A stretch of DNA of 56,603 nt, the filler included, from Nitrospiraceae bacterium (GTDB lineage Bacteria > Nitrospirota > Nitrospiria > Nitrospirales > UBA2166): assembly GCA_002726235.1 (NCBI GenBank). It is 3 parts of 3 records of this genome, joined end to end, with 100 filler letters (N's around TTAATTAATTAA, not from the genome) between each part and the next. Parts side by side here need not be neighbours in the genome. Positions count along the whole stretch, not along the records: positions 1 to 22,889 come from PBSN01000014.1; 2 more parts are not named here. One strand, written 5' to 3'. Of the stretch, positions 1-6,000 are shown in pieces (position 1 is the stretch's first letter; the number at the start of each line of letters is the position of its first letter). Position numbers: made by a program.

Positions 1-3000
1 GATTTAGGTCGGAATCAACTTCGGCCCTATTTACAGGCTCTTCAAAGCATTGTTCAAGAAATGTGGGGTTGGTCTACCTAGCAGATAAAGATTCCCAACT
101 AAGGCACCTGATTGTCGCAAATAATTCCTTGAAATTTCGGAAACGGAAGTTCTGCTTCGAGGCGCTCATCAACGTTATGCAAATCAGCAACTTTTGGACA
201 AAGCATCAGATGCAATCCGCTCTAGGATCTGCCTGCTAATAAACAATGAAGTAACACCAAAAAAATTCCTAGCAACCGACGTGGCTCAGTTGAGGGCTTT
301 TGGAGTACCCTTAGCGCACACATAGAAAAGAATCTTCCCAATAAAAGTTCTGGCAACCGAGATGTCCTGACAGTCTACTCAATAGTTGGGTGCAGGAAGA
401 TAAAGGAGGAACAGATATGGGGGATCAGGGGGGAAAAGACAAAAACAAAAGGGAACAACAGAAAAAGGACAAGCATAGTTCAAAGGAAAAACGACAATTG
501 AAAAGAGAAAAGAAGAAATGATGGCCAGTGCTGTCCGGTGACCCGTTCAACACCGCAAAGTGATTGCTAATCGCGGATGGAGATCAACTTTCCATCAACA
601 TCCAGAATCAAGACCGAGGCAATCATCCAACAAAGCCTTCGAGCGTATGGGTAAACCCGCCGCTCAAGGCACACGTCATGCATCGAGTCGGAGTAGTTCT
701 TACTTCTTCCCCCTTGATGGAGTCCAGTCCCAGAGTGAGTGTTCTGGCCAGTCACTCTTCGATCCACCAGTCCACTTCTCCCCATTTTGACTGCATCACT
801 GCAACACCCCCCTTGAGCCTTCTCAACCGTTGCACTGTTGTGTGCCAATTGCGCTAAGTTAAAAACACCAGCGGAGGAGAGACCTAGTGAAGCGAGAGGA
901 CCAGTGTCCAAACCTCAACCATCGCATCCCAATGCGCCGTTACAATCTGGTATCATGTGCGGCGAGGTGGTGAATCACAGCATTCCTGTGCCGCCGAACG
1001 GGTGTCGGGAGAAACAACATGTGAGGCGTGGCCATGCACAGGATGCCTACTGTCGGTATTGTGGGCAACAGCTTAGAGGGACATGACACTATGAATCGTA
1101 TCAAGATCGCTATTGTCGGGGTTGGGAACTGTGCCAGTTCATTGATACAGGGCATCCACTACTACCGGGAAAAGATTCCCCAAGAGGCGATCGGCCTGAT
1201 GCATTGGGAAATCGGTGGATACTCGCCTGGTGATATCGAGGTGGTCGCGGCTGTCGATATCGATGTGCGAAAAGTCGGCGTCGATGTGCATGAGGCCATT
1301 TTTTCCCTACCCAACTGTACGACAGTCTTCTGCCCCGACCTTCCCAAAGCCGGAGTCACCGTGCAGATGGGCGGGATTATGGATGGATTTTCCGACCACA
1401 TGACAGCGTACGATCCAAAGCGCACGTTTGTTCAAGCCAATAAGCCAGAACCGACCGAAGGAGACATCGTCACGTTGCTCCGCGAATCTGGTGTGGAGAT
1501 TCTCATGAATTATCTTCCGGTCGGCTCCGAGAAGGCGACGGAGTTTTATGCCGGCTGCGCATTGAAGGCTGGCGCGGCCTTCATCAACAACATTCCAGTG
1601 TTTATTGCCAGCGATGCTCAAGGGAGCTGGGCCAGGCGATTTCAAGAGGCCGGCCTCCCCATTATCGGCGATGACATCAAAGCGCAGGTAGGGGCAACCA
1701 TCACCCATCGGGTCCTAACTGATTTGTTCGCCAAGCGTGGGGTGAAGCTGGAGCGGACGTACCAACTCAATACCGGCGGCAATACTGACTTTCTCAACAT
1801 GCTCAACCGCGATCGGCTGGCGTCAAAGAAACAATCCAAGACTCAGGCCGTACAGTCCGTGGCCGCTCACCCTATAGAGGATGACAACATCCATATTGGC
1901 CCGAGTGATTATGTGCCGTGGCAAAATGACAATAAGGTCTGTTTTCTCCGTATGGAAGGACGGCTATTCGGTGATGTGCCCATGAACCTCGAATTGCGCC
2001 TTTCAGTAGAGGATTCACCTAACTCGGCAGGGGTCGCGATCGATTCCATCCGCTGCGCCAAACTCGCGTTGGACCGAGGACAGAGTGGCATACTCGAAGG
2101 ACCGTCGGCTTACTTTTGCAAACATCCCCAACGACAGTTTACCGATGATATCGCCTTCCAGATGACGGAACATTTCATCAACGGCGACTGAGATTATCGG
2201 GATGAAATGCCTCATCATCGCGGCGGGCAAAGGAAGCCGGCTGCAGCAGAGGGGTCCCAGTAAGCCCCTCATTCCCCTTCTAGGCATCCCCTTGATTGAA
2301 CGCGTCATCCGCACCGCGTTGGACGCTGGTGTCGACGAAATATTCGTCGTGACCGGCTACCAGGGTGAACAGATCCGTGATTTCTTGGAAGGATTGGCGG
2401 CACGACTTGCGATTCGGATCACTCCTTTGGTGAATGACGAGTGGGAGAAAGACAATGGACTCTCCGTGCTCACGGCGCGAGACTACCTTCACGATCCCTT
2501 TCTGCTTCTCATGGCGGATCACCTCTTCGACCCACGCTTAGGCCATGCACTAACAACGCATGCCCTGACCGATGGAGAGATCGCGCTCGGCATCGATCTC
2601 GACACCCGCAATCCTCTGGTTGATATGGAAGATGTGACCCGTATCAAAGTGGAGGACGGGAAGATTCGTACGATCGGCAAGGGATTAGTCGACTTCAATG
2701 GATTCGATACTGGAGTGTTCCTGTGTTCCCCAGCGATATTTAAGGCTCTGGCGCAAAGCAAAGACACCGTGGGTGATGCCACCCTGTCAGGAGCGGTACG
2801 GATTCTTGCCGCAAAGGGATGTGTGAGCGCTGTCCCTACGCGTGGTTTCTGGGTTGACGTCGACGATCCGAAGGCATTCAACAAGGCCGAAGCGGCCCTC
2901 TTAGATCATCTCCGCGACAAGTCAAACGATGGGCCTGTGTCCCGTTACCTGAACCGTCCCATATCCATACGAGTGTCCCGTTATTTGGCACAATATGATG

Positions 3001-6000
3001 TGACGCCCAATCAAATTTCCCTGTTCTCGTTTCTGTGTTCCATGATTGCCGCCGGACTGTTTGCTCTGGGCGGCTATCTCGCCTTGCTTCTGGGAGGCGT
3101 TCTTGCCCAATTCGCATCTGTCATCGATGGGTGCGACGGGGAAGTGGCTAGGCTCAAGTACCAAAGCAGCGACTTCGGCGGTTGGTTCGATGCGGTGCTG
3201 GACCGTTATGCCGATGCGTTTCTCCTCTTTGGCTTGACGTGGCATGTGCTCCTCACGGAGCCGAATGGTTGGATCCTCTTCATCGGTGTCATGGCCATTA
3301 TCGGATCCTTCATGCTGAGTTATACGGCGGATAAGTACGATAACCTCATGCGTGAACGATTCGAGTTGAGGGGTATGGCCATGATACGGATGGGACGTGA
3401 TGTGCGGGTATTGCTCATCTTCATTGGTGCAGTGATGAATCTCGTACTCCCTGTGCTGGTGGCGATCGTGGTGGTGATGAATATCGAGACAATACGCCGG
3501 ATGAAGGTCGCGTCGGATGCGTAGTGTTGAGTCTGCCAAACAGAGCATCAGGCGGATTGTCGGCGGCTCGCGCGTGCCCGAGGACCCACGCCATGCTGAC
3601 AACACCCTAGAGTGGCTGTTGCGCTTTGCACCGGATGCCGACGATGCTCTGCAATTGGCAGCGCTGGCCCACGACATCGACCGAGCCATCGAAGAAAGCA
3701 AGACCCCGCGTGCGGACTTTGAGGATTATGATGCCTTCAAGGCTGCCCATGCCCGTCATGGCGCGGAAATACTGCGCCCGATTCTCGTCGCATGTGGCGT
3801 GGAAGGCCATATCGTGAACGAGGCGTGCCGTTTGGTAAAGGTCCACGAGGTGGGAGGAGATCCCAGCTCCGATCTACTCAAGGATGCCGACAGTGTCTCC
3901 TATTTCGACGTCAATCTCCCGCTCTATTACGAGCGTGAGGGGTGGGATGAGGCCAAACGGAGATCACTCTGGGGATATCGGCGTCTGTCGCCACCGGCGA
4001 AAGAGATTGTCAAACACATTGTCTACCAGGAGCAAGCGCTGGTGCGTTTGATGCAGGAGGTCATTCATGAAGCTCGCGAATGTCTTCAACCGACTCTGCA
4101 ATGAAGCCGACCACCATTGCCTCTCCTAGTGTACCATGAGTGGGTGGACGAATATCGAACTGACCTTTCCCCCTTGATTAAGTTCAGCGAGCGCGACGAT
4201 GCTGTGAAAGACTATCACCGCCAAAACAGAGCTCTCCCTGAAGAGACCCGATACGACATCCTGATTCTAAACGCGTCATCTAGAATGGCGTTACCCGTCA
4301 CGCATCCGCGCTTCTTCCCTCAGGGCCTACTCTCGCCATAAGATCAAGAGCTATATAGCTAGCCTCCCTTTCAAATTATCTTCACCCCCTGCTTACGATC
4401 TCAATCCAAAAATGTGTGATGCGCTAAAATTGTCGAGTATTGTTGTGTTCGACTCAATGTTGATTTAGGTCGGAATCAACTTCGGCCCTATTTACAGGCT
4501 CTTCAAAGCATTGTTCAAGAAATGTGGGGTTGGCACGAAATCTGCTTTCCCCCATTGGAGGGAATCGTATACGAGGATAGCTCACATGCTGAATTTCTGG
4601 AAAACAGGGTAGATGCGAAGCCTTTTGAAAGGAAACGTCGATCGTCAAGCTCGAAAGGTGAAGGTTCGCCAGAATCCTGTCGACCGTTGGGCATATACCA
4701 CGTGTGGGTATTGCTCGACCGGATGCGGCATTGAAGTGGGAGTGAAAGATGCTCGTGCGGTGTCCGTGCGAGGAACCAATGCCCATCCGGTCAATCAAGG
4801 CAAACTATGCTTGAAAGGCATTTGGGAGTTCGAGGCGATTAACGCACCGAATCGCGGGACACATCCGTTGATGCGCGAGGAACCGACTCAGCCATATCGT
4901 CGGGTCTCCTGGGATGCGGCACTCACGCAAACGGCGACAGAATTTCGTCGCATTATGGACACGTACGGTCCGGACGCGCTTGCGGTCGTCAGCACCGGCC
5001 AGATCTATACCGAGGAATTCTACGCCCTCGGTAAACTTGTGCGGGGGGGACTTGGGACAAACAACTACGACGGAAACACCACCTTATGCATGGCCAGTGC
5101 GGTATCAGGCTACAAGCGATCCTTTGGATCCGATGGCCCCCCAGGATGCTACGACGATTTTGATGAGACGGAGTGCCTGCTCGCATTCGGATCGAATCTT
5201 GTGGAATGTCATCCGGTAATTTACTACCGGCTCAAGATGGCGCTCGAGCGCCGTCGATTTCCTGTTATCGTCATCGATCCACGCGTCACTGTGTTCGCAC
5301 AAAACGCGGATATTCACCTTGCCATCAATCCTGGGACGGACTTGGTATTGCTCAATGCCCTCGCTCACGTGATTTTGGAAGAACGCCTCGCTGATCAGAA
5401 ATACATTGAAACCCATACCAGCGATTTCGATGCATTTGTGGAAACGGNGACGAAATACTCCCCTGAATACGCGGAGCCGATCACTGGAATTCCAGCATCC
5501 ACAACTCGAACAGTTGCCAGGATCTATGGCAACGCAAATGCTGCGATGTCCATTTGGACAATGGGAATCAATCAGTCTGTGCATGGATCAGATGGCGTGG
5601 TCGCTATTAACAATCTCTCGTTGCTTACAGGAAACATCGGAAAACCAGGCGCAACGTCGCTCTCTATCACTGGCCAGTGTAATGCCATGGGCACCCGTGA
5701 ATTTTCGTCATGCTCAGGACTGCCGGGCTATCGCCTGCTCGAAAATCAGGAACACCGGGCGCAAATCGCGCAATATTGGGGTGTGGATGAATCATTCTTT
5801 CCCCTTAAACGAGGCAAAACGATGACCGATATCTTTCCCGCCATTGAGGCAGGAACCATCAAGGGTCTTTGGCTCATCGCGACCAATCCTGCGACATCAA
5901 TGCCGCAAACCCAGCGGATTGCAAAGAGTTTGAGAAACCTTGAGTTTCTTGTCGTCCAAGACGTGTTCGAAAATGTGGATTCAGCAGAGTTTGCCCACGT

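What a model noticed while it worked through the whole genome (the two positions that open the first line are those of the whole stretch)
1034..4104. A mobile three-gene di-myo-inositol-phosphate cassette (ino1 - ipct/dipps - DUF4202) in a marine Nitrospirales, with the [...]
C14 starts with a compact cassette: myo-inositol-1-phosphate synthase (g01410), the bifunctional CTP:inositol-1-phosphate cytidylyltransferase/DIPP synthase that makes the thermophile solute di-myo-inositol phosphate (g01411), and, overlapping its stop by 8 nt, a 195-aa HD-domain protein of the uncharacterised family DUF4202 (g01412). The cassette is 75-83% identical at protein level to copies in at least a dozen other phyla from deep-sea and vent metagenomes, so it is a recently and widely exchanged unit. 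Because DUF4202 follows ipct/dipps almost invariably, I propose that it is the so far unassigned dedicated phosphatase that turns DIPP into DIP.
Evidence so far: swissprot.tsv: g01411 aligns end to end with characterised IPCT/DIPPS of Rubrobacter xylanophilus (33.6%, E 2e-58), Aquifex and Archaeoglobus; g01410 54% to mycobacterial Ino1. gtdb.tsv: best hits of the three genes are Blakebacterota, 4484-113, Mariprofundaceae, Gammaproteobacteria, Nitrospinota, Rhodothermia at 75-83%; no UBA2166 among the first ten; n_genus 0 for Inos-1-P_synth and DUF4202. The contig is anchored by modA/modB at its far end (60-88% to UBA2166; call 61). find_related_loci with g01411 + tblastn: a DUF4202 gene lies directly downstream on the same strand in 67 of 74 loci with room for it (41 of 41 at >=70% identity, 26 of 33 below), ino1 upstream in 55 of 63. 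Alignment A4 of [...]
(Added by a program. Inside this text positions count along the whole contig: they may not be those of the stretch shown here. "Call 12" and the like, gene names such as g00115 and contig names such as C1 are that model's own, and its searches are not shown. The text may have been shortened before it was handed on; [...] marks where a part breaks off. The agent that wrote the report below was given it as the finding of a first reader that could run no searches.)

Follow-up and report, generated by a model that had tools for sequence, protein, structure and literature searches.

The report
Inositol-solute cassette with HD hydrolase
A marine nitrite-oxidiser-like bacterium has picked up a compact three-gene block for making the stress solute di-myo-inositol phosphate, and its third gene, an uncharacterised HD-type hydrolase, is the best candidate so far for the enzyme that finishes that pathway.

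Summary
Window 1091-4104 (+) carries ino1, a fused ipct/dipps and a 195-aa DUF4202/HD gene whose ATG overlaps the ipct/dipps stop by 8 nt.

The block looks acquired:
- DUF4202 was found in 0 of 150 other genomes of the order.
- Its proteins are closer to copies in many other phyla (60-83%) than to a congener's ino1 (69%) or IPCT (48%).
- It sits between two copies of a 176-bp native repeat.
- One public assembly joins the flanks without it.

New evidence ties DUF4202 to the pathway:
- Of 80 loci chosen by DUF4202 similarity, 78 have dipps directly upstream.
- DUF4202 is fused to IPCT/DIPPS at least three separate times, and also to an inositol-kinase-like PfkB, a HAD and a GT4.
- Its six HD metal ligands are invariant or nearly so.

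No assay exists. "DIPP phosphatase" is the most likely reading (about 0.5) but remains inferred. The literature I could read gives this step to IMPase-family enzymes, which this genome also has. The finding is a new variant of a known pathway, of moderately high interest.

The parts
1..72 (.). Right-hand 72 nt of the upstream copy of direct repeat R, cut by the contig start
   Evidence: 100% identical to 4462-4533. In run X1 the stretch 4358-4533 is a separate unitig at depth 30.8, against 15.6 and 16.8 for its neighbours.
73..1090 (+). Left arm of the inserted segment. Holds no long gene. Contains a 34-aa Lys-rich ORF (417-521) with a strong ribosome-binding site, a short genus repeat (696-837), and a leader (888-1075) shared at 68-69% with L024/L025.
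1091..2191 (+). ino1, myo-inositol-1-phosphate synthase (ORF open from 1028; likely start 1091)
   Evidence: PF01658 E 6.6e-37. TIGR03450 E 8e-132, below its cut-off. 63-86% identity to cassette copies. 69% identity to the congener's ino1.
2202..3524 (+). [quoted passage not shown]
   Evidence: Pfam and NCBIfam hits. PDB 4mnd E 1.9e-53 over residues 1-415, 4o6m E 7.7e-47, 2xme E 5e-21. The signature residues D309, D312, G313, A316, R317, G326, D330 and D334 are invariant in 38 copies.
3517..4104 (+). DUF4202, an HD-domain hydrolase and the proposed DIPP phosphatase
   Evidence: PF13875 and PF01966. H26, H52, D53 and D125 are invariant; H78 and H110 are conserved in at least 90% of 46 sequences. 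AF2 model pLDDT 95.8. HD-fold matches: 2pq7 Z 13.3, YpgQ Z 11.7.
4105..4357 (.). Right arm of the inserted segment, non-coding
   Evidence: No similarity to other cassettes beyond 4072. The X1 unitig spans 43-4387.
4358..4533 (.). Full copy of direct repeat R. It is native intergenic DNA upstream of the molybdopterin oxidoreductase gene (4613-6757).
   Evidence: Double-depth unitig in X1. X4 record 31 bridges 4263-4888. The same loose end lies before 4358 in X1, X3, X4 and X19. G008:C107 matches window 4396-4545 at 70% and 4611-8722 at 77-81%.

Best explanation
Window 1091-4104 is a horizontally acquired, self-contained operon for the phosphodiester solute di-myo-inositol phosphate (DIP).

Proposed steps:
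1. Ino1 makes L-myo-inositol-1-phosphate from glucose-6-phosphate.
2. The N-terminal domain of IPCT/DIPPS activates it with CTP to CDP-inositol.
3. The six-helix membrane domain transfers the inositol-phosphate onto a second inositol-1-phosphate, giving DIP-phosphate (DIPP).
4. DUF4202 is translationally coupled to IPCT/DIPPS. It is a soluble HD-domain enzyme with a probably two-metal site. It removes the terminal phosphate of DIPP to give DIP.

What is shown:
- The genes, their coupling, their joint transfer, and the natural fusions.
- The conserved HD metal ligands.

What is inferred:
- The product of the transferase, by 30-40% homology to characterised enzymes.
- The substrate of DUF4202.

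In this genome the operon lies in a 4.3-kb segment inserted between two copies of a 176-bp native intergenic sequence, upstream of a nitrate-assimilation-like cluster.
For: (1) Anatomy. Three co-oriented genes with gaps of 10 nt and -8 nt.

(2) Adjacency seen from the DUF4202 side.
- Of 80 loci picked by DUF4202 similarity (60-80% identity, record titles from many phyla), 78 have dipps directly upstream on the same strand. One is cut by a contig end and one has ino1 instead.
- Of 62 loci where the junction could be read, 40 overlap by 8 nt, 16 by 14 nt, 2 by 5 nt, 1 by about 2 nt, 2 are in-frame fusions, and 1 is interrupted.

(3) Fusions among longer proteins. Of 42 hits, 7 are IPCT/DIPPS-DUF4202 or DIPPS-DUF4202, 28 are PfkB-DUF4202 and 3 are HAD-DUF4202. 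DUF4202 is C-terminal in all ten sequences I read.

(4) Fusions at the 50%-cluster level.
- IPCT/DIPPS fusions occur at 51, 42 and 37% identity to the query, and there is also a GT4 fusion.
- On a tree of 103 DUF4202 domains the IPCT/DIPPS fusion needs at least 3 origins. Three of the four IPCT/DIPPS fusions, both DIPPS fusions, all PfkB fusions, the GT4 fusion and one of the two HAD fusions fall on the query's side, 32 rows, SH-aLRT 86.

(5) The fused PfkB domain.
- Its best PDB match is 3w4s/4xf6/4xf7, E 4.3e-6.
- 4XF7 is the T. kodakarensis myo-inositol 3-kinase. Its five inositol-contact residues (D12, G26, Q136, R140, D219; PMC5931981 passages) are all matched in that alignment.
- A kinase that makes inositol-3-phosphate, the same compound as L-inositol-1-phosphate, fused to a hydrolase argues that the hydrolase does not attack that monophosphate.

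(6) A second, divergent cluster, L102.
- Gene order: GDPD, then an AIPS/DIPPS-like transferase (28% identical), then an IPCT-like transferase, then HAD, then PfkB::DUF4202.
- So the link with transferases that accept inositol-phosphate is not confined to one cassette.

(7) Chemistry. H26, H52, D53 and D125 are invariant. H78, H110, E111, R56, K75 and R156 are conserved in at least 90% of sequences. The fold matches HD phosphohydrolases.

(8) Topology (inference). The IPCT domain is cytoplasmic and the transferase has six helices (PMC4634129 passage). A C-terminal DUF4202 would therefore be cytoplasmic, beside the active site.

(9) Precedent in print. Prokaryotic transferases that accept inositol-phosphate give a phosphorylated product that needs a phosphatase (PMC4634129 passage).

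(10) Acquisition.
- DUF4202 was found in 0 of 150 other genomes of the order with this query.
- The congener's ino1 is 69% and its IPCT 48% identical, against 63-86% and 51-77% for copies in other phyla.
- Nucleotide similarity of 65-79% is confined to 1088-4072.
- A direct repeat flanks the insert. X3 record 24 joins other sequence straight to 4358-5400.
Against: - There is no biochemical datum for any DUF4202. "DUF4202" occurs in 0 papers of the library.
- The loci are related copies of one mobile block, so 78 of 80 is not 78 independent observations.
- IMPase-family enzymes are the phosphatase named in print for this step.
- This genome has two IMPase-family genes. All 5 cassette-bearing genomes I checked have at least one. 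A dedicated enzyme is therefore not strictly needed.
- In the L102-type cluster a HAD hydrolase sits beside DUF4202, and in P0123 it is fused to DUF4202. There the product phosphatase could be the HAD.
- L049 has ino1 directly followed by DUF4202 with no ipct/dipps between them. The same MAG does hold a full cassette elsewhere.
- The transferase domain scores higher against AF2299, a CDP-alcohol transferase whose physiological product I did not find stated, than against the A. fulgidus DIPP synthase. The product could be a related phosphodiester.
- Structural matches are generic HD folds. Foldseek's best E is 4.9e-3.
- Most of the wider DUF4202 family (71 of 103 tree rows) has other partners, such as NUDIX, alpha/beta-hydrolase and cyclase, or none.
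Confidence: 0.5

Rival explanations
1. DUF4202 is a hydrolase of the same pathway but works in the other direction or on another intermediate. It would be a phosphodiesterase or pyrophosphatase that breaks down DIP or CDP-inositol, for turnover or control of the solute pool. This would resemble the HD hydrolase domain that opposes the synthetase domain in Rel/SpoT.
For: - HD domains include many phosphodiesterases. Small alarmone hydrolases (Z 10.7), SpoT, cyclic-nucleotide PDEs and HD-GYP are all among the fold matches.
- DIP and CDP-inositol carry diester or anhydride bonds.
- Fusions of opposing activities exist in nature (recalled: Rel/SpoT).
- NUDIX fusions in distant family members hint at nucleotide-linked substrates.
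Against: - In the L102 cluster a dedicated glycerophosphodiester phosphodiesterase is already present next to PfkB::DUF4202.
- A three-gene block that spreads as a unit is more useful if it completes synthesis.
- Fusions of a synthase with a product phosphatase are the common pattern for solutes made through a phosphorylated intermediate (recalled: trehalose, sucrose, mannosylglycerate, glucosylglycerol).
Confidence: 0.2
2. DIPP is dephosphorylated by the host's IMPase-family enzymes, as assumed in print. DUF4202 does something accessory that is merely co-inherited, for example clearing a side product or a nucleotide.
For: - Two IMPase-family genes in this genome and at least one in all 5 cassette hosts tested.
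- IMPase is labelled as the DIPP phosphatase, and an extra IMPase gene lies beside ipct/dipps in Thaumarchaeota.
- The closest folds include the nucleotide pyrophosphohydrolase YpgQ.
Against: - Repeated independent fusions to IPCT/DIPPS itself and conserved start/stop overlap point to a stoichiometric partner, not a bystander.
- No IMPase hit was found within 6 kb in any of the 80 loci with the two queries used.
Confidence: 0.12
3. DUF4202 is an inositol-monophosphate phosphatase that releases free myo-inositol from the Ino1 product.
For: L049 pairs ino1 directly with DUF4202, with no ipct/dipps between them.
Against: - It would drain the substrate of both IPCT and DIPPS.
- It would form a futile cycle in the 28 fusions with a PfkB domain, whose sampled member P0133 keeps the inositol-contact residues of a myo-inositol 3-kinase.
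- The L049 genome also has a full cassette.
Confidence: 0.08
4. DUF4202 is an oxygen-dependent HD-domain diiron oxygenase of the MIOX/PhnZ kind, acting on inositol.
For: - The H...HD...H...H...D ligand set fits that group as well.
- PhnZ is the best HD protein by sequence in the PDB, though not significant at E 0.27, and reaches Z 9.2 by fold.
Against: - The cassette occurs in records titled as Desulfobacteraceae, a SEEP-SRB2 lineage, Thermotogae, Bipolaricaulia and Aminicenantes. These are groups known as anaerobes (recalled).
- PhnZ ranks 24th by fold, behind many hydrolases.
Confidence: 0.03
5. The cassette is not part of this organism, because contig C14 is mis-binned.
For: - MAG contig of 22.9 kb.
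- Another contig in the same window looks eukaryotic.
- GC of the cassette is 0.54-0.57, against about 0.50-0.53 for the rest of C14.
Against: - The DNA right after the cassette matches a congener at 77-81% over 4611-8722 and at 70% over 4396-4545.
- The left arm carries a short repeat found on four contigs of that congener.
- Contigs of independent runs join cassette and flank: X4 record 31 spans 4263-4888, and the X1 unitig spans 43-4387.
Confidence: 0.03

Closest known systems
DIP pathway of (hyper)thermophiles: MIPS, bifunctional IPCT/DIPPS (A. fulgidus AF0263, PDB 4mnd/2xme) and an IMPase-type DIPP phosphatase
   Same: - Same first three activities.
- Same fused architecture and the same CDP-alcohol transferase signature.
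- Spread by horizontal transfer is described for the pathway genes (PMC8397731 passage citing Goncalves 2012).
   Different: - The last gene is an HD-domain DUF4202 instead of an IMPase.
- The hosts are many non-thermophile-looking marine, seep, trench and vent lineages, judging by record titles.
- Identity to the solved enzyme is low, and the NCBIfam equivalog cut-off is not reached.
ipct/dipps genomic island of hadal and deep-sediment Thaumarchaeota (PMC7265257, PMC8397731)
   Same: - Fused ipct/dipps acquired as a small island by a deep-sea nitrifier.
- Proposed there as a pressure or stress solute.
- Transcripts measured in cold hadal water (passages).
   Different: The archaeal island carries an extra IMPase gene as its neighbour. 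The bacterial cassette carries DUF4202 in that role and brings its own ino1.
Synthase-phosphatase pairs of other compatible solutes (trehalose-6-P, sucrose-6-P, mannosyl-3-phosphoglycerate, glucosylglycerol-P); recalled, not tested here
   Same: - Two-step logic: a phosphorylated intermediate, then a dedicated phosphatase.
- Genes adjacent or fused.
   Different: Those phosphatases are HAD-type. Here the candidate is an HD-domain protein.
HD-domain phosphohydrolases of known structure: 2pq7 (uncharacterised, Thermotogales), B. subtilis YpgQ, small alarmone hydrolases, YqeK
   Same: All-helical HD fold and metal-ligand motif.
   Different: - Sequence identity is 11-20%.
- Their substrates are nucleotides.
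- None is linked to inositol metabolism.
CDP-inositol route to inositol lipids (R. marinus, Jorge 2015, cited only; putative alternate cluster of Bacteroides vulgatus/Prevotella, PMC9246714)
   Same: - MIPS plus an NTP transferase plus a CDP-alcohol transferase, and a HAD in Bacteroidetes (passage).
- This resembles the split cluster of the congeners G016 and G004.
   Different: - The window's transferase domain has the short six-helix size typical of soluble acceptors.
- The congeners' 299-aa enzyme is about 100 residues longer.
- No DUF4202 is reported in that cluster.

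Membership tests
Bifunctional IPCT/DIPPS | N-terminal nucleotidyltransferase domain related to CTP:inositol-1-phosphate cytidylyltransferase | tested here: met
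   PF12804 E 1.7e-16. PDB 2xme (IPCT) E 5e-21 over residues 1-232.
Bifunctional IPCT/DIPPS | CDP-alcohol phosphotransferase signature D-x2-D-G-x2-A-R...G-x3-D-x3-D | tested here: met
   D309, D312, G313, A316, R317, G326, D330 and D334 are invariant in 38 aligned copies. PF01066 E 1.5e-9.
Bifunctional IPCT/DIPPS | Score above the curated equivalog cut-off (NF041135, 580 bits) | tested here: not met
   282.3 bits. By its name the model is built for Thermococcales, so failing it shows distance, not a different function.
Bifunctional IPCT/DIPPS | Short six-helix membrane domain, as in transferases with soluble acceptors | tested here: inconclusive
   The domain spans residues 237-434 and aligns end to end with the AF2299 membrane domain. 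The rule is taken from a PMC4634129 passage. I made no topology prediction.
Bifunctional IPCT/DIPPS | Makes DIPP from CDP-inositol and inositol-1-phosphate | not testable with these tools
   Needs an enzyme assay.
Pfam DUF4202 (PF13875) | Score above the gathering threshold | tested here: met
   63.1 bits against 35.1.
HD-domain metal-dependent phosphohydrolase superfamily | H...HD...D metal ligands in an all-helical fold | tested here: met
   PF01966 at 27.9 bits against 22. H26, H52, D53 and D125 invariant. Fold matches 2pq7 (Z 13.3, rmsd 3.5, 152 aligned) and YpgQ (Z 11.7).
IMPase family (PF00459), the phosphatase named in print for DIPP | Sequence membership of the cassette's third gene | tested here: not met
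   The gene has no PF00459 hit. The genome's two PF00459 genes lie on contigs C2 and C4.
MIOX/PhnZ-type HD oxygenases | Closest fold or sequence relationship to these enzymes | tested here: inconclusive
   PhnZ E 0.27 by sequence and Z 9.2 at rank 24 by fold. The six-ligand motif is shared with binuclear hydrolases.
myo-Inositol-1-phosphate synthase | Pfam domain and full-length match to the bacterial INO1 model | tested here: met
   PF01658 at 126 bits. TIGR03450 is matched over positions 1-355 of 355 at E 8e-132, but at 439.7 bits it is below that equivalog's 638-bit cut-off.

The most novel reading that the evidence does not exclude
One clade of DUF4202 is a previously unrecognised, dedicated HD-type phosphatase for inositol-phosphodiester solutes (DIPP to DIP).
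- It would replace the promiscuous IMPase.
- It would make the DIP pathway a self-sufficient three-gene module.
- That module has spread through many bacterial phyla of the deep sea, seeps and vents.
- DIP, long read as a marker of hot habitats, would then be a common solute of cold, high-pressure bacteria.
- The same enzyme type would serve related clusters built around inositol kinase, HAD and GT4 partners.
Probability: 0.45. Interest if true: 0.8.

Novelty: new variant of a known kind. Interest (0 to 1): 0.66.

Why it matters
- If DUF4202 is the DIPP phosphatase, the last step of a textbook thermophile solute pathway gets a dedicated enzyme, and a family of unknown function gets a testable role. 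The family has 770 clusters at 50% identity with E up to 0.001.
- The finding gives a clean marker, ipct/dipps plus DUF4202, for tracing this solute in metagenomes of cold deep-sea bacteria. So far only Thaumarchaeota were discussed in the papers I could find.
- It offers a compact three-gene module for heterologous DIP production.
- The repeat-flanked insertion, with a possible empty site in natural populations, is a concrete case for studying how such stress-solute modules move.

Tried and rejected
- Complex prediction of IPCT/DIPPS (alignment A2) with DUF4202 (alignment A1): verdict "no answer", score 0.00 in two runs, controls not run. This is no evidence either way.
- Foldseek against the PDB: no match at E 0.001 or better. 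MIOX was not among the 50 rows listed by VIA-align.
- Rfam on 1-5000 at E up to 0.1: nothing. tRNA search on 1-23000: none. The promoter and terminator scan gave fewer sites than shuffles. I found no integrase, transposase or tRNA target beside the cassette.
- The 30-nt sequence that precedes 4358 in four runs was not found in the G000 assembly, which is 90.65% complete. The upstream neighbour in this genome is therefore unknown.
- The metagenome scan with the PfkB part of P0133 gave only one locus, L102. The context of PfkB::DUF4202 rests on that single contig plus L098 and L099.
- The control genomes for NF041135 all matched through the generic nucleotidyltransferase domain, so that control was uninformative.
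- ESM Atlas returned only "HD domain" clusters.
- The GT4 part of P0174 gave weak hits: MSMEG_0565 family E 1e-11 and MshA E 1e-9, both far below their cut-offs. This is a lead only.
- RNA run X19 has 151-nt contigs at 3495-3645 and 3642-3792 with no differences. An RNA library can hold DNA, so I do not count this as proof of transcription.
- Parts of the stretch without cover in X4 or X19 say nothing.
- PMC1951816 is not held. I did not see Rodrigues 2007, Rodionov 2007, Goncalves 2012 or Jorge 2015; they are cited only through other papers or from recall.
- I opened no supplementary files.

Full report
WHAT IS THERE

The window is three contigs joined by N spacers. C14 is window 1-22889, C15 is 22990-49184, and a third contig follows.

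C14 opens with three co-oriented genes.
- ino1 is the ORF 1028-2191 (Pfam PF01658).
- ipct/dipps is 2202-3524, 440 aa. It has a MobA-like nucleotidyltransferase domain plus a CDP-alcohol transferase domain.
- The third gene is 3517-4104, 195 aa, with PF13875 (DUF4202) at 63.1 bits against a cut-off of 35.1, and PF01966 (HD).
- The ATG of the third gene lies inside the last codons of the second. The overlap is 8 nt.

NCBIfam's IPCT/DIPPS equivalog is matched end to end at E 6.5e-84, but at 282 bits against a 580-bit cut-off. The best solved relatives are the A. fulgidus IPCT/DIPPS 4mnd (E 1.9e-53, residues 1-415), the CDP-alcohol transferase AF2299 (4o6m, E 7.7e-47, residues 237-434) and the IPCT domain 2xme. 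The transferase signature residues are invariant in 38 aligned copies.

One correction. All other copies start to resemble the window only at about 1088-1100, and at residue 14-22 of the long ORF. The ino1 start is therefore probably the ATG at 1091.

IS IT ACQUIRED?

- With the DUF4202 protein as query, none of 150 other genomes of the order has a match. That set includes four of the same genus.
- Two congeners, G016 and G004, carry a different arrangement: ino1, a stand-alone 238-aa IPCT and a 299-aa CDP-alcohol transferase.
- Their ino1 is 69% and their IPCT 48% identical to the window's. Copies in records titled as many other phyla reach 63-86% for ino1, 51-77% for IPCT and 60-80% for DUF4202.
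- G000 lacks the congeners' version. Its best match to the 299-aa enzyme is 30%.
- Nucleotide similarity to the foreign copies is 65-79% and is confined to 1088-4072, that is, to the three reading frames. Only L024 and L025 also share a leader at 888-1075.

The contig itself belongs to the genus. A congener, G008, matches 4611-8722 at 77-81% and 4396-4545 at 70%. A short repeat at 696-837 recurs on four of its contigs.

HOW IT SITS IN THE GENOME

- Window 1-72 is identical to 4462-4533.
- In run X1, one 4345-nt piece covers 43-4387 at depth 15.6. A separate 176-nt piece covers 4358-4533 at depth 30.8. A 14-kb piece starts at 4504 at depth 16.8.
- This is what a two-copy repeat R (4358-4533) around a single-copy insert (73-4357) would give.
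- In X4, a 626-nt contig runs from 4263 to 4888, so the insert, R and the downstream gene are contiguous there.
- In X1, X3, X4 and X19 the same foreign sequence is found directly before 4358.
- In X3 it is part of a 6233-nt contig that continues through R to beyond 5400, at depth 12.9, while the cassette pieces of that run have depths of 2.9-7.5.

I read this as the structure U-R-insert-R-D, with an unoccupied U-R-D form in at least one population. Contigs alone cannot exclude a free circle, and depths are one figure per contig.

I found no integrase, transposase, tRNA or Rfam element at the borders. The mechanism of movement is unknown.

IS DUF4202 TIED TO THE PATHWAY?

I chose loci through DUF4202 instead.

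Adjacency:
- The 80 best of 427 confirmed genome loci are all 60-80% identical to the query.
- Of these, 78 have dipps immediately upstream on the same strand. One is cut by the contig end. One, L049, has ino1 there instead.
- ino1 precedes ipct in 50 of 58 loci with room.
- The start/stop overlap is kept. Of 62 junctions read, 40 overlap by 8 nt and 16 by 14 nt, and two Acidobacteriota loci are in-frame fusions.
- These loci are related copies of one block, so the count shows persistence, not independent association.

Fusions are the stronger evidence:
- Among 42 longer proteins, 7 are IPCT/DIPPS-DUF4202 or DIPPS-DUF4202, 28 are PfkB-DUF4202 and 3 are HAD-DUF4202. The other 4 are a GroES-annotated call, a PF19313 call and two with DUF4202 only.
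- In the ten sequences I read, DUF4202 is always the C-terminal part.
- Among representatives at 50% identity, IPCT/DIPPS fusions occur at 51, 42 and 37% identity to the query. There are also GT4, NUDIX, alpha/beta-hydrolase and cyclase fusions.
- A quick maximum-likelihood tree of 103 DUF4202 domains needs at least three origins of the IPCT/DIPPS fusion.
- The tree puts three of the four IPCT/DIPPS fusions, both DIPPS fusions, all four PfkB fusions, the GT4 fusion and one HAD fusion on the query's side: 32 rows, SH-aLRT 86, a weak branch.
- NUDIX, hydrolase, cyclase and the other HAD fusion fall on the other side.

THE PARTNERS POINT TO INOSITOL PHOSPHATE

- The PfkB domain of P0133 has as its best solved relative 3w4s/4xf6/4xf7, E 4.3e-6.
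- 4XF7 is the myo-inositol 3-kinase of T. kodakarensis. The residues that paper names as contacting inositol (D12, G26, Q136, R140, D219; PMC5931981, passages) are all matched in the alignment.
- Inositol-3-phosphate is the same compound as the Ino1 product. A hydrolase fused to that kinase is therefore unlikely to be an inositol-monophosphatase.
- The one metagenome contig found with this kinase, L102, is an operon: GDPD, a CDP-alcohol transferase closest to archaetidylinositol-phosphate, DIPP and PIP synthases, an IPCT-like transferase, HAD, and PfkB::DUF4202.
- Two Desulfobacteraceae cassettes have the kinase gene right after DUF4202.
- So DUF4202 accompanies transferases that accept inositol-phosphate in two clusters that share only about 28% identity.

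CHEMISTRY

- In 46 diverse family members, H26, H52, D53 and D125 are invariant. H78, H110, E111, R56, K75 and R156 are conserved in at least 90%. This is the ligand set of two-metal HD enzymes, plus three basic residues that could hold phosphates (inference).
- The AlphaFold model is confident, pLDDT 95.8.
- It resembles HD phosphohydrolases: 2pq7 (Z 13.3), YpgQ (Z 11.7), small alarmone hydrolases and the PPX/GppA HD part (about 10.7).
- For a helical protein these Z values show the fold, not the substrate. Foldseek's best E is only 4.9e-3.

WHAT IS KNOWN

- "DUF4202" occurs in no paper of the library.
- Prokaryotic transferases that accept inositol-phosphate yield a phosphorylated product. 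For PIP the phosphatase was "as-yet-unidentified" in 2015 (PMC4634129 passage). It was later assigned to BT_1525 in Bacteroides (PMC9246714 passage).
- For DIPP, the papers I could read label an IMPase-family enzyme (PMC8397731 legend). They also describe an extra IMPase gene beside the fused ipct/dipps of hadal Thaumarchaeota, with transcripts in water at about 2 degrees C (PMC7265257 passages).
- A search for three phrasings of "DIPP phosphatase" found nothing else relevant.
- A search joining di-myo-inositol with Nitrospina or Nitrospira terms listed no paper holding both among the 20 shown.
- The pathway, its transfer and its presence in cold deep-sea archaea are therefore known. The bacterial three-gene form with an HD hydrolase is not described in what I could search.

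WEIGHING

For the DIPP-phosphatase reading:
- The cassette needs exactly one more activity.
- DUF4202 is coupled and repeatedly fused to the enzyme that makes DIPP.
- Its other partners feed or resemble the same chemistry.
- It is clearly a catalytic HD hydrolase.

Against it:
- There is no assay.
- IMPase genes are present in every host checked.
- A HAD sits beside DUF4202 in the second cluster type.
- One locus pairs ino1 with DUF4202 alone, although that MAG has a full cassette on other contigs.
- The transferase domain is closer to AF2299 than to the proven DIPP synthase, so the product may be a related phosphodiester.

I put DIPP phosphatase at about 0.5, another hydrolytic role in the same pathway at 0.2, a bystander role at 0.12, inositol-monophosphatase at 0.08, oxygenase at 0.03 and mis-binning at 0.03.

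VERDICT

- The finding is a new variant of a known pathway.
- It is worth a bench test that is simple to set up.

Noticed in passing
window 49285-56603: The third contig has much lower GC (0.29-0.43, against about 0.51) and a 1427-aa ORF (52296-56579) with a copia-type reverse transcriptase domain, RVT_2. It looks like a eukaryotic retrotransposon fragment binned into this bacterial genome.
   Followed up: partly
L006 (G016:C388) 560-2969; L020 (G004:C15): Two congeners carry ino1, a stand-alone IPCT and a 299-aa CDP-alcohol transferase about 100 residues longer than DIPPS. This fits a lipid acceptor and the CDP-inositol route to inositol lipids. Inositol-phosphate clusters are thus accessory and variable within the genus.
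   Followed up: partly
L102 70-4091: A metagenome operon reads GDPD, AIPS/DIPPS-like transferase, IPCT-like transferase, HAD, PfkB::DUF4202. It is a second, divergent inositol-phosphodiester cluster type built around DUF4202.
   Followed up: partly
window 417-521: A 34-aa, very lysine-rich ORF with a strong ribosome-binding site 7 nt upstream lies in the left arm of the insert. It has no Pfam match.
   Followed up: no
window 696-837: A short sequence is found at 80-92% on four different contigs of congener G008, but only once in the G000 assembly. It may be a small genus-specific repeat.
   Followed up: no
window 888-1075: The leader upstream of ino1 is shared at 68-69% with the two closest foreign cassettes, L024 and L025, only. 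It may be a regulatory region that travelled with the block. No Rfam match.
   Followed up: no
L085 2113-6558: Two tandem ipct/dipps genes (54-65% and 63-70% identical to the window's) precede a single DUF4202.
   Followed up: no
L049 4867-6579; L103, L104: One gammaproteobacterial MAG has ino1 directly followed by DUF4202 with no ipct/dipps. It also has a full cassette split over two other contigs.
   Followed up: yes
window 19152-21218: A TonB-dependent receptor is split into two adjacent ORFs: the plug domain at 19152-20321 and the barrel at 20325-21218. This could be a broken gene or a sequencing error.
   Followed up: no
window 4613-15715: The cassette lies directly upstream of what looks like a nitrate-assimilation cluster. 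The cluster holds a molybdopterin oxidoreductase, an FeS/DmsC-type subunit, a NirB/NirD-like nitrite reductase, a porin and an MFS transporter.
   Followed up: no
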